From Octopus vulgaris (Eukaryota): 64,000 nt of DNA. Where the stretch lies: the NCBI GenBank assembly GCA_951406725.2, contig OX597821.1, forward strand, positions 86,118,001 to 86,182,000, given 5' to 3'. Below, piece by piece: positions 32,011 through 54,301 of this stretch. Position numbers and translations under genes: made by a program. The notes under the pieces are model-generated. The model was not told the origin of the DNA and did not search any database. It was given only the letters and a program-made list of their open reading frames with translations. Numbering within the stretch: position 1 is the stretch's first letter; each line of letters opens with the position of its first letter.

Positions 32011-34496
32011 TATCTTTGTTAATGACAAGGGAGGATAAAGATATTGCAAATTAGTGGTCCATACCAAGGATGGTTAATACTGACTTTTAGTCCTGAACGG
32101 TGTTGGTGTAACTGAATGATTTAGTCCAGTGACACATGGGCACTAATTTTGTTGGGTATGGAGGAATTAAAGTAAAGCCAATTTTAGAGGGCATTTGAAT
32201 CTGAAGCATCAAGCATTTGATAGCCACAATGATACTGAAAAAGGCGGAATGGTTGAATCGTTAGAGAATCAAATAAAATGCCCTGCAGTATTTTTTCAAG
32301 CAATTAAATCTGTGAATTGAAGATCCGCCGAAGTCAGTTTTACATTTTAGCTTTTCGGGGTCGATAAAGTACCAGTGAAATATGGGAACGATCTAACCGA
32401 ATAACTTTCCACCCTGATTTTTTAATTTTAGTCCCCATACCTACATAAGAAATAATTATAGTAGTCATGAAAATCACGATTAGGTCAAGTAGGATTTGAA
32501 CTTTGAACACTGAAGGAGAAGAGCACAGCCCACAAAGCATTTTTGCGGAGCTTTATTATTTATGCAACTTCCTCTACAGTAATTTTTGTTGGATAAGGCG
32601 AAAACTCTGATAATAATCAGGGCCCAAATTTTAGCGGGGAGGTGTAGTATATTAAATCGACTCAAGTACATTATTTAATAGATGATAGACGTTAAAGACA
32701 ATCATAGCAGGATTTAAACTCAGAATGAGATGACTGGCCACGGTTGTTTGGGCGCTGGCAATTTGGTATGGCTGATTGGACACTGAATTTGTCTTGGCAG
32801 TGGCTTTTTGAACGAATGTATTTTTTGGCACTGGAGGCGAACGTACACACACATACAAACAGACACACGCGCGTGTGTACACAGACATGCACGCACACTC
32901 ACACGCAGACACGCGAACACACACACACATGTGAACGTTCCCGGGGAAACATGCACATAAATAGATTAGAAAGAACTTCCTTGTGCTTCTTTGTTATCAA
33001 TAGTATTTCTGATATTTACGAGTTTCTGTACATGACCTCTCATATCACTTGTCAGTCACGTTGCAGATCTGCAAGACTTGAGGCATAGGTGACAGCTGAA
33101 AGAAATTAATGTGCACTTCTATTGCCATAAAACTTTCAGTAAATTAAATGACAAACAAGGTCACCATAAAGAGACATTTCTATGTTATTGAATTACAGGG
33201 ATAAATGTTGAACAACACGAGTACCACGTTCTGAATCTTCGTAATTAACGTTTAGTGCCAGGCCAAAGTGGGATGGCCAGTAATCAAATGAACCTGCAGG
33301 TTTTACACCAGTGTGTCCCTCTCCTAGAAGGATTCTGTAACAACAGCTAGGGTTCTTTCATCTCAGTCGTTTATGCTAATTGGCTCAGAGCTGAGACTCA
33401 GGCAGGTGCTACTAATCGGGGTCAGGGTTGACCCGGGAACGATAGTGGCTAAGAGGTGGTTCTATACTTCTCAAAACCCTGGCACTCTCCAAACCATGGC
33501 CCTACAAATGGAAGCAATTTAAAGTCACATCCAGGAAACGTAAAAAGAAATATACATATATAAACAGAGAGGTAGAGAGAGAGAGAGAGAGAGAGAGAGA
33601 GAGAGAGAGAGAGAGAGCAAGAGAGACAGACAGACACGAAGCAGAGAGAGAGAGAGTAAGAGAGAGAGAGAGAAGAGAGAAGAGAGGGAAGGCTGTGTTT
33701 GCAGCAATCGGAGTAACATAATACTCCTAAGTGTTTCTTTCGCCGAAATTTAAATTCCCTGTCACATCTATGTTGTCAAGAATCTAAAGAAATCCGCCGA
33801 GGGAAAAAATGTTTCATTTACCCGTCCACCAACTACAATGCACATAAAGTAAAGCGGAACGTTAAACGAAGTTTAGTTGTCGATTAGTTTGGTGTGATTA
33901 CAAGTTGATTGTCGACTAAAGTAAAAGCAAAATTTTCAAGGTGTCAAAATGGTCCCAAGAAAAAAAAAAAGCCTAATGTCAAATAAGTCAGCGTCGAATC
34001 AGCGATGCCAAAGAGGCGGACCAAAACGGCTGTGCCAAAGCTGTTATATCCTTCTATTCCGTAATTTTGTATATCAGTTTACATATTCTTGGAATTGGAA
34101 TTAAAGATTTGGTTGTTATCCCTAGCAACTGATAGTCAGATGGAGTCATCGAGGTCGCCATTTAAGCTCGTAGCTAGCAGCTGCAGCAACAATAGTAACA
34201 GCAGCAGCAGCAGCAGCAGCAGTAGTAGTAGTAGTAGTAGTAGTAGTAGTAGTAGTAGTAGTAGTAGTAGTAGTAGTAGTAGGTCTTGTTATCAATTCTA
34301 TAAGAATACCTTGTACGAGGGTCGGCCGAAAAGTTCATAGGCTGTTCAAGATATTCTCATGTAATGTGACCAAATGAAGATTACTTTCTAGCATAGTCCC
34401 CCTTGCAGTCCACACACGTCTTCTATCGGTGATGCCGCTCTTGGGTCCCATTGGAGAAGAAGCTTTAATCAGGTTGGTCAAAAAAGTCATCGAGTT

Positions 34497-34913
34497 GCTG
34501 TGTGGTAAGTAGCTTGTCTACCAACCACATGGTTCCGGATTCAGTCCCACTGCGTGGCACCTTGGGTAAGTGTCTTCTACTATAGCCTCGGGCCGACCAA
34601 AGCCTTGTGAGTGGATTTGGTAGACGGAAACTGAAAGAAGCCCGCCCTATATATATATATATATATATATACATATATACACATATATATGTATATATGC
34701 GTGTGTGTGTTTGTGTGTCTGTGTTTGTCCCCTAGCATTGCTTGACAACCGATGCTGGTGTGTTTATGCCCCCGTCACTTAGCGGTTCGGCAAAAGAGAC
34801 CGACAGAATAAGTACTGGGCTTACAAAAGAATAAGTCCCGGGGTCGAGTTGTTCGATTAAAGGCGGTGCTCCAGCATGGCCGCAGTCAAATGACTGAAAC
34901 AAGTAAAAGAGTA
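34497..34913 (+). mobile_element. SINE family B nested in mariner
   Basis: Same family. Duplicate at 45794-46245. Confidence 0.88.
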
Positions 34914-51690: not shown

Positions 51691-52858
51691 TCTTTATATA
51701 TATAAAACTGAGAATGTGTGTCTGTCTGTCTGTCTGTCTGTCTGTCTGTGTGTTTCCCTAAAACTTGAGAACTACACAACCAATTTCATTCAAATATTAC
51801 ACATGCCTTACTTAGGGTCCGGGGAGTGTCATCGGCAAAATCTTTTAAAAACTTTTTGCTTAGGGCGAGCCCACAGCAATATCATATCTTCTCCACTACG
51901 ATTTCCTAAAACTTGAGAACTACACAACCAATTTCATTCAAATTTTACACATGCCTTACTTAGGGTCCATGTAGTTTCATGGGCAAAAAATGTTCAACTT
52001 CTTGCCTAGAGTGAGCCCATAGCAATATCATATCTTCTCCACTATTTCAGTATTACGTGTTAAAAGTGAAACAAAAACATTTCTCTATTTTATGTCAGAT
52101 ACTTTCACTTAGTATATGTAGTAAGTAATAATTAAAATCAAACTAAAGTATAATATAATCGTAACATAACAAAAGTAAAAATAGCAATTGGTATAAAATT
52201 ACATTAATGACTTGAACTTGAATAAGTGGTTTCACATGAATGGGAATAAATTAAAAATAAAATTAGCGTGCAGAAATGGAATAGTCCAGATGGATAATAA
52301 AAAATTAAATTAAAGAAAAGACTATTGTCTATAAAGTATATAATGTAGAGAAAAAAGAAGATTTGAACATATGGAGGAAAGCACCTTCGAAAAGTGTCTT
52401 GCTGCGACTATGAAAGATATCTAATCAGAGGCGGTAAATTCGCCACAATAGAAGCAAGGTTCGAGTCAACGGAGCGTGCAAGGGAGTACTCGACTCGAAC
52501 TTGCAAAGTGGAAATATTTTATTTTTACCTTTATATCTGGGACGTAGGACGTCCCGGAAAAAAATTAAAATGCCCCCCCACCACCCGAAGTAGAGGTAGG
52601 CTGGATTGTAGCCACACTTCTATACAAGAGGGAGGACAAGATACAATTGATCGAAATTACAAGAGACGGGCTAACAATTCCAGTCTTTTATATATTTTGA
52701 GTATTGTTATCACTAGCGATATCAAGATATAACTTTGTATTTTGCATTTTATGTGTAGATGTATATATATAGATGTACATGTAATATGTACACATATATA
52801 TACACATATATACATGCACTAGCACTATGACCCGGCAATGACGGGTCTTTAATGCTAG
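51691..52858 (+). mobile_element. Duplicate of the 40388-41555 Helitron
   Basis: Same termini in duplication copy 2. Confidence 0.8.
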
Positions 52859-54301
52859 TATATATATATATATATATATATATATATATATATATATATA
52901 TATATATATATGGAGTAGACGAAACAGGGACAACTGAAGAAGGGAAATATTCCTTGTGTCGTATGTCTTGTACTCTGTTTTTTTCGTTGTTTGAAAAAAA
53001 GTTCGTTTCCATGTTTTTGTTTTTGTTTTCGTCTCTCATTGTGTTCAACGTTTTTTTTATGTCCTGTACCCATATATGCATGTATATATACATATAGATG
53101 TAGGTATGTACATATATGTAGATATGCATATATTTATATATTATTTATATTATTACATGATCCAACGCCACGCATCCTTTTCCAAGTAAGTTTTTCTCTC
53201 TCTCTCTCTCTCTCTCTCTCTCTCTCTCTCTCTATATATATATATATATATATATATGTGTGTGTGTGTGTGTGTGTGTGTGTGTGTGTGTGTGTGTGTG
53301 TGTGTGTGTGTGTGTGTGTGTGTGTGTGTGTATTAAAAGTCGGGCTAAAATATGCATCTGTTTGCTTGAAAGAAGAATAAAATTCTCTCAAACCACGTAT
53401 CTCTCATTCTGTGTAAAGCCACACGGAGATGTAGTAAATACATTTAGAAAAACGTTTTTCCATTTTGTAAATCTACTCCCGTTTGTAGATTTACATTGTA
53501 TGTATATATATATATATATATATATATATATATATATATATATATATATATATATATATATATATATATATATATATATATATATATATATATATATATA
53601 TATATATATATATATATATATATATATATATATATATATATATATATATATATATATATATATATATATATATATATATATATATATATATGGCGGTGCC
53701 CCAGCATAGCCACAGCTCATTAGCTGAAACTGGAAAATCAAAATCAAAAATCAAAATATATACATATATATGTGTATGTAAGTATATGCGTTATATATAT
53801 GCGTATGTGTGTGTGAGTGTGTTTTTGTGTCATTGTTCCCGACCACCGCTTGTCTAAGGTACAGGTGTGTTTACGTCCCCATAAATTTGCGGTTCGGCAA
53901 ATTATCCTCGACAGACTAAGTGCTAGGCTTAAAAACACTAAGTACTGGGGTCGTCTCGTTCGGCTAAAATTCTATAAGGCACTGCCCCAGCATGACCTCA
54001 ATCTAATGACTAAAACTGGTATAAGATTAAAGATTAATCTGTAGCTAGTGAGAAATGTCTTTTCAAAATGTTCACGCTACAAAAATATGACTAGTCATGT
54101 ACCCATTGTTAATTCTCGACTATAATATAAATATTCTTTGTTCTGCAAGATTCTTGGTATGAAATCATGTGTTGAAACTGATACTGTTATATTTCGGGAT
54201 GGTAATAGAAATATTTTTTTCTTTTTTTGCCATATATATATATATATATATATATATATATATCAAATGAAGTAATTGAAAAACAGGACGCTAAGGATTT
54301 T

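What the first reader, a model, noticed from the sequence alone, without database searches (positions are those of the whole stretch)
32749..53690. 9.5-kb tandem duplication with a Penelope-like element exactly at the junction
The structure is A-(TA)n-[PLE, minus strand]-A-(TA)n. The PLE 3' end sits in the (TA)n that ends copy 1, and its truncated 5' end joins the first base of copy 2 (44031 corresponds to 32749). No PLE sequence flanks the outer ends, so unequal recombination between two PLE copies does not explain it. It looks like a giant target-site duplication: priming at a TA nick, then the cDNA joining DNA 9.5 kb away. The intact PLE frame and near-identical copies fit one recent event. 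The mechanism is inference.
Basis: partly seen in the sequence, partly recalled or inferred. Interest (0 to 1): 0.75.

Follow-up and report, generated by a model that had tools for sequence, protein, structure and literature searches.

The report
Penelope retrotransposon bridges 9.5-kb duplication
A 9.5-kb stretch of non-coding DNA is present twice, head to tail, with a cut-short Penelope-type jumping gene exactly between the copies; it likely arose when a faulty insertion joined the element's free end to DNA 9.5 kb away, an accident known for LINE elements that I did not find described for this class.

Summary
Confirmed: A1 (32749-42234) and A2 (44031-53690) are a direct duplication (0.54% substitutions outside microsatellites) with a 5'-truncated PLE (42235-44032, minus strand) between them and no PLE at the outer ends. 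New: the 5' junction has a 2-nt microhomology (TG); the family is young, TA-targeting, with 729 exact 3' ends; of about 205 other loci with a resolved far end nearly all end in an inverted second arm or in (TA)n, 5 join host DNA, one of them with a 627-bp inverted duplication, none with a direct one. A contig from a public run carries the junction letters. Best reading (0.68): one aberrant integration, primed in the TA array, whose cDNA end captured a distant site instead of a second arm. 'Target-site duplication' fits the geometry but the far break is not a TA target, and the copy is among the family's older ones. Read depth and an empty allele remain untested. Same outcome is published for human L1 and algal Dualen LINEs; no PLE case found in 9 paper searches. 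The scan earlier noted a PLE-centred 35-kb inverted duplication elsewhere in this genome (e1-8666025), not this direct type.

The parts
32749..42204 (+). copy A1 of the duplicated segment: non-coding, SINEs, a MITE, mariner scraps, microsatellites; no host gene found
42205..42234 (.). (TA)15 ending A1; inferred nick and priming site
   Evidence: family 3' ends all in (TA)n
42235..43056 (-). PLE 3' untranslated end, form without the ~40-bp tail; holds a ~95-bp internal direct repeat (42374-42467 / 42486-42580)
43057..44030 (-). C-terminal 325 codons of the PLE ORF: RT thumb, C-x4-C-x2-C linker, GIY-YIG endonuclease; cut just after the RT core
44031..44032 (+). 2-nt microhomology TG shared by the PLE and the start of A (32749-32750); an offset 6-nt match TGTTTG lies at the same place
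44031..53502 (+). copy A2 of the duplicated segment
53503..53690 (.). (TA)94 ending A2, PLE-free; inferred intact target array
53691..53750 (+). 3' fragment of a common SINE that begins the right flank; TA array followed by this fragment also occurs elsewhere

Best explanation
The segment is duplicated head to tail around a truncated Penelope-like element, and the duplication likely arose in one aberrant germline insertion of that element. Shown: 3' end in the TA array, no tail, no second arm, 5' end joined through TG to the first bases of A. Inferred: the GIY-YIG endonuclease nicked the TA array about 15 units in; the plus-strand 3' end primed 1.8 kb of cDNA; instead of pairing with a second inverted arm or with the rest of the array (the family's two normal outcomes) the cDNA end annealed 9.5 kb back at the start of A, on the same or the sister chromatid, and A was copied or ligated on, leaving A2 with the whole TA array. 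Sister-chromatid capture and same-chromatid template switch cannot be told apart here.
For: Both PLE ends coincide with the duplication's inner ends to the base. 29 of 29 best relatives have their 3' end in (TA)n. 2-nt microhomology at the 5' joint, as in 47 of 63 L1-mediated deletions (PMC7058536). No PLE outside. Of about 205 other loci with a resolved far end, 5 join host DNA directly, so this family does make such joints; at one (L108/L251) a 627-bp inverted copy of nearby host DNA (99.2%) starts exactly at the PLE's 5' joint, and at L178 the arm is fused to U6atac: the cDNA end switches templates. Ages are compatible with one event: PLE 8-10 of 1796, A1/A2 44 in 8169 on two branches, binomial p 0.24 and 0.06, and leave no room for extra allelic distance. 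Run X4 has a 167-nt contig, depth 4, no differences, over 44016-44182, plus an A1-type contig and two letters found in neither copy.
Against: No second direct duplication among about 205 loci (0 of 5 host-joined ones), so it is a single case. The X4 contig has only 15 PLE-only letters, under the tool's 31-letter rule for a bridge, and X4 may be the source animal; differences at depth under 5 may be errors. Depth over A versus flanks, spanning long reads and an empty allele are untested. The PLE is slightly more diverged than half the A1/A2 distance predicts (one-sided p 0.04-0.14). 0.54% is also a plausible distance between alleles.
Confidence: 0.68

Rival explanations
1. The PLE inserted first in the usual way; later a break inside it was joined by microhomology to the start of A on a PLE-free homologue, so host repair, not retrotransposition, made the duplication.
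For: Same end structure. The PLE is a little more diverged than expected. An earlier agent reached this kind of order for a PLE-centred palindrome elsewhere (e1-8666025; not tested here).
Against: A2 lacks the PLE, so the partner must be another haplotype; A1/A2 should then be at least twice the PLE's age (0.9-1.1%), but it is 0.54%. A later break must fall by chance inside a 0.2-5 kb element, while 5' truncation is the family's rule.
Confidence: 0.13
2. An older, longer tandem duplication existed first; the PLE then inserted in the TA array of copy 1 and its 5' end deleted the old junction, landing inside copy 2.
For: 4 of 5 host-joined loci have a single-copy far flank, the pattern expected of insertion with deletion; deletions outnumber duplications 66 to 14 for L1 (10.1101/2024.08.27.596794).
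Against: Needs two rare events at one place. Predicts a PLE younger than half the A1/A2 distance (0.27%), whereas it is 0.45-0.56%.
Confidence: 0.1
3. Assembly artefact: two haplotypes, one with a PLE at the end of A and one with a PLE joined to the start of A, were strung together through the element.
For: 0.54% substitutions and microsatellite length differences look like alleles. Depth and spanning reads untested.
Against: No gap in the window. The PLE-A2 joint is new sequence present in a read-derived contig, so two independent insertions flanking the same 9.5 kb would be needed. X4 shows A1-type, A2-type and two further letters (44562, 44810), more than two types if it is the source animal. 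Substitutions are not significantly patchy (p 0.06-0.13).
Confidence: 0.09

Closest known systems
L1-mediated tandem duplications in human tumours (PMC7058536, 12 passages read; 10.1101/2024.08.27.596794, 12 passages)
   Same: Single retro-insertion bridging a direct duplication; endonuclease target at the 3' end, microhomology joint at the 5' end; model of cDNA invading a break on the sister chromatid; 14 of 152 rearrangements are duplication-like.
   Different: Somatic, APE-endonuclease LINE with poly(A); examples up to 22.6 Mb. Here a GIY-YIG PLE, TA target, no poly(A), inherited.
Dualen-4b_cRei LINE duplications in Chlamydomonas mutation-accumulation lines (PMC9977147, 12 passages)
   Same: Heritable duplications flanking the insertion like a very long TSD.
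   Different: Median 900 bp and over half of insertions, ascribed to two endonucleases; here 9.5 kb, one case in about 205 loci, one endonuclease. Their Supplemental Fig. S7 (length range) was not seen.
Canonical EN+ PLE insertion architecture (PMC8557442, 12 passages; PMC11167929, parts 1-2 of 4)
   Same: RT plus C-terminal GIY-YIG, 5' truncation, partial tandem pLTR, inverted second arm, optional tail, microsatellite target; the Anolis protein cuts and extends both strands and starts at two RNA sites.
   Different: The second arm is missing and 9.5 kb of host DNA stands in its place.
Penelope elements of Adineta vaga (PMC3846280, 12 passages)
   Same: A PLE 5' junction made by microhomology without TSD; PLE activity copies host DNA.
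   Different: There a gene framed by pLTRs moved to a new site with an 8-bp TSD; here local DNA is duplicated in place.

Membership tests
EN+ Penelope-like elements | RT with C-terminal GIY-YIG in one ORF | tested here: met
   Natural long copy L234: 784-aa frame, RVT_1 E 3e-7 and GIY-YIG E 3e-6; window copy GIY-YIG.
EN+ Penelope-like elements | Partial tandem (pLTR), inverted 5'-truncated arm, optional 30-40 bp tail | tested here: met
   Tandem restart in L226, L227, L234, L238, L240; 115 two-armed loci by script; tail on one arm in most pairs. The window copy itself has none of the three.
EN+ Penelope-like elements | Canonical hammerhead ribozyme in the pLTR | tested here: inconclusive
   No Rfam hammerhead at E<=1 or E<=0.5, no CTGA.GA core in the 3' end; variant folds not tested.
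Neptune/Nematis clades | CX2-5CxxC linker before GIY-YIG and (TA)n bias | tested here: met
   CNRPNCGIC in the frame; definition from PMC8557442; TA target.
Neptune/Nematis clades | Placement in an RT tree | not tested
   No tree with named PLEs was built; the clade label is a lead only.
Retrotransposition-mediated tandem duplication | One element at the junction, 3' end at the element's normal target, 5' end at the duplication's other boundary | tested here: met
Retrotransposition-mediated tandem duplication | Microhomology or short insertion at the 5' joint | tested here: met
   TG.
Retrotransposition-mediated tandem duplication | Copy-number gain in reads and reads spanning the structure | tested here: inconclusive
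   Only a short junction contig in one run; depth not obtained.
Retrotransposition-mediated tandem duplication | Pre-insertion allele with one copy and no element | not tested
   No second genome or usable reads were examined at this locus.
True target-site duplication (two staggered endonuclease nicks) | Second nick at a site of the endonuclease's preference | tested here: not met
   The start of A has no TA array, while family ends lie in (TA)n.

The most novel reading that the evidence does not exclude
Penelope-like elements are a germline source of multi-kb tandem duplications, inverted duplications and deletions: in a few percent of insertions the cDNA end fails to find its second arm and captures host DNA. 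In genomes with thousands of TA-targeting PLEs this would be an unrecognised route to tandem gene duplication, and the rescued junctions would expose the unknown second step of PLE integration.
Probability: 0.3. Interest if true: 0.72.

Novelty: new member of a known kind. Interest (0 to 1): 0.46.

Why it matters
How a PLE attaches its 5' end is an open question (PMC8557442, PMC11167929). A rare failed insertion with base-exact boundaries, set against about 205 normal ones, shows that the free cDNA end can join DNA kilobases away, and extends insertion-mediated duplication from LINEs to a telomerase-related class and to an animal germline. The duplicated DNA itself holds no detected gene, so the local effect is probably nil.

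Tried and rejected
Unequal recombination between PLE copies: no outer copy in the window or 20 kb each side. 3' transduction: a unique 2.1-kb piece of A occurs full length only here, twice, and A2 lies at the element's 5' side. A subfamily explaining the copy's private letters: the two variants at 42287 and 42291 occur together only in the window. Host gene in A: 31 of 64 listed frames scanned, only a mariner scrap. Patchy divergence as a sign of gene conversion or alleles: not significant after masking. Runs X1, X3, X6 list no piece across the junction, but records are filtered, so no inference. Word shares of 0.83-0.91 in X1-X4 exceed the 0.74 that A1 plus PLE alone would give, but a single ancestral allele would do so too. 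A repeat spanning the outer boundary 32749: no hit in 2.0 Mb of loci. My recall that the dog AMY2B array has a LINE at its junction was not confirmed by passages of PMC12481690 and PMC8228171 and is not used. Read depth across A and its flank was not obtained.

Full report
Observation. The duplication is real in the assembled sequence: 32749-42234 against 44031-53532, 65 substitutions and 21 indels, 44 substitutions in 8169 bases outside microsatellites, 0.54%. A1 ends in (TA)15, A2 in (TA)94. Between them lies 1.8 kb of a Penelope-like element on the minus strand with an open frame ending in a GIY-YIG domain. The genome has 2.8 Gb in 227 contigs; its repeats and earlier notes of the scan suggest an octopus (inference). 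A 2.1-kb piece of A is full length only at these two places among 40 scored candidates. No host gene was found in 31 of 64 listed frames from A and its left flank.

The element. The family is young: best copies are 99% alike and 729 places carry the exact 36-letter 3' end. A long natural copy (L234) has a unit of about 4.5 kb, a 784-aa RT-GIY-YIG frame, an upstream 472-aa frame without Pfam match and a tandem restart. The linker CNRPNCGIC and the TA bias fit Neptune/Nematis as defined in PMC8557442 (12 passages); no tree was built. No canonical hammerhead was found.

The junctions. All 29 best relatives end 3' in (TA)n, with or without a tail of about 40 bp; the window copy is tailless. Past 44030 the family reads TG TTTG, the start of A reads TG GGCG, so 44031-44032 is a 2-nt microhomology; an offset TGTTTG is present in both partners and may have aided pairing. 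The start of A is not a TA array. No other piece of the family lies in the window or in 20 kb on either side.

Survey of the family. I classified the far end of copies from 237 locus records: 1 lacked the motif; the script merged the rest into 201 loci, 115 two-armed, 56 ending in TA-type repeat, 20 unresolved, 10 'host'. On inspection 8 merges were false (shared SINE flanks) and of the 10, L034 and L140 are two-armed, L094 ends in TA after a scrambled insert, L178 and L069 are fused to U6atac (Rfam) and a SINE inside a TA-type array. One search added 16 new resolved loci, none host-joined. That gives about 205 resolved loci, 5 joined straight to host DNA. The sample is under half of the family and was enriched for single-armed and long copies, so 5 of 205 is not a genome-wide rate. 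For L135, L152, L187 and L237 the far flank is single-copy: probable insertion with deletion, unproven without an empty allele. At L108/L251 a 627-bp inverted copy of DNA lying about 1.2 kb away (4 mismatches) starts at the arm's 5' joint and is followed by a two-armed copy. No second direct duplication was found.

Age. The window PLE differs from the family majority at 10 of 1796 sites, 8 private; the median of 60 other long arms is 0.28% (0.11% private) and 4 are as diverged (part of that set was chosen for likeness to the window copy). Its private variants are not a subfamily. One event predicts A1/A2 at twice the PLE's distance; the counts agree within error (two-sided p 0.24 for 8, 0.06 for 10), with a slight excess on the PLE side that RT errors or a lost source copy could explain (inference). 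Both two-step rivals fit no better: 'duplication first' needs a younger PLE, 'PLE first, homologue later' needs more distant A copies.

Reads. Of 4 runs laid as contigs on 43700-44840, X4 has a 167-nt contig at depth 4 over 44016-44182 with no difference: 15 PLE-only letters, the TG, then A with the A2 letter at 44067. That is under the tool's 31-letter rule for a bridge, and X4 may be the source animal. X4 also has a contig with 4 differences over 44719-44796, where A1 differs at 4 sites, and two letters in neither copy (44562, 44810; depth under 3). If X4 is the source, three types argue against two mis-joined alleles; if not, a second animal shares the joint. X1, X3 and X6 list no piece across the joint, which proves nothing as records are filtered. 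Depth, spanning reads and an empty allele remain open.

Mechanism. The Anolis PLE protein cuts and extends both strands and starts at two RNA sites that define the tail (PMC11167929, parts 1-2 of 4), which matches the two-armed, one-tailed insertions that dominate here. In the window one arm was made from the plus-strand end in the TA array and the second is absent; the cDNA end continues as A2. I infer capture of a site 9.5 kb back, on the sister chromatid or by template switch on the same one; A2 keeping the longer TA array fits a nick inside the array, though such arrays change length fast. The geometry equals a TSD, but the far break lacks the target motif, so two programmed nicks are unlikely.

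What is known. L1 bridges tandem duplications in tumours with the same signatures (PMC7058536; 14 of 152 in 10.1101/2024.08.27.596794; experimental support in PMC11702581, 12 passages). Dualen LINEs make heritable TSD-like duplications of median 900 bp (PMC9977147). A PLE 5' joint by microhomology is described in Adineta (PMC3846280). Nine searches (listings only, apart from the papers named) showed no PLE-bridged tandem duplication; subscription papers and all supplements were not seen, and the Dualen and L1 supplements bear on how unusual 9.5 kb is.

Verdict. A well-defined single case of a known kind of accident in a class where I did not find it reported; cause likely (0.68), reality in the animal likely (about 0.9) but not shown by depth. 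Interest 0.46.

Noticed in passing
L178:3308-3490 (G000:C11, near 5.994 Mb): A 71-bp PLE 3' arm fused to a near-complete U6atac snRNA copy (Rfam 80.6 bits) inside a TA array: a PLE counterpart of U6/L1 chimeras.
   Followed up: partly
L251:896-2859 (G000:C1, near 146.68 Mb): PLE arm, then a 627-bp inverted copy of nearby host DNA, then a two-armed PLE, all in one TA array.
   Followed up: partly
L135, L152, L187, L237: PLE 5' ends joined to single-copy non-TA DNA; candidate PLE-mediated deletions.
   Followed up: partly
L094:7690-8700 (G000:C7, near 70.63 Mb): PLE copy interleaved with about 900 bp of GC-rich scrambled sequence; repeated template switching or a consensus error.
   Followed up: no
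many loci, e.g. L033-L058, L149-L192: A short derivative dominates the family: arms ending at about 107 or 135 bases from the 3' end, the latter with a fixed linker, mostly as perfect inverted pairs; looks like a non-autonomous sub-element.
   Followed up: no
L234:2486-3901: A 472-aa open frame upstream of and overlapping the RT frame in full-length copies, no Pfam match; an extra ORF or spliced/frameshifted N-terminus.
   Followed up: partly
window 2076-3442: Two-armed insertion of another PLE family (431-bp inverted arms, 99%, GIY-YIG scrap) in TA.
   Followed up: no
window 58459-61269: Intact 936-codon RT frame of a non-LTR element preceded by an (AAT)n run.
   Followed up: no
G000:C8:109909457 and 109934700: Two family 3' ends 25 kb apart in opposite orientation; possibly the ends of one inversion, not fetched.
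   Followed up: no
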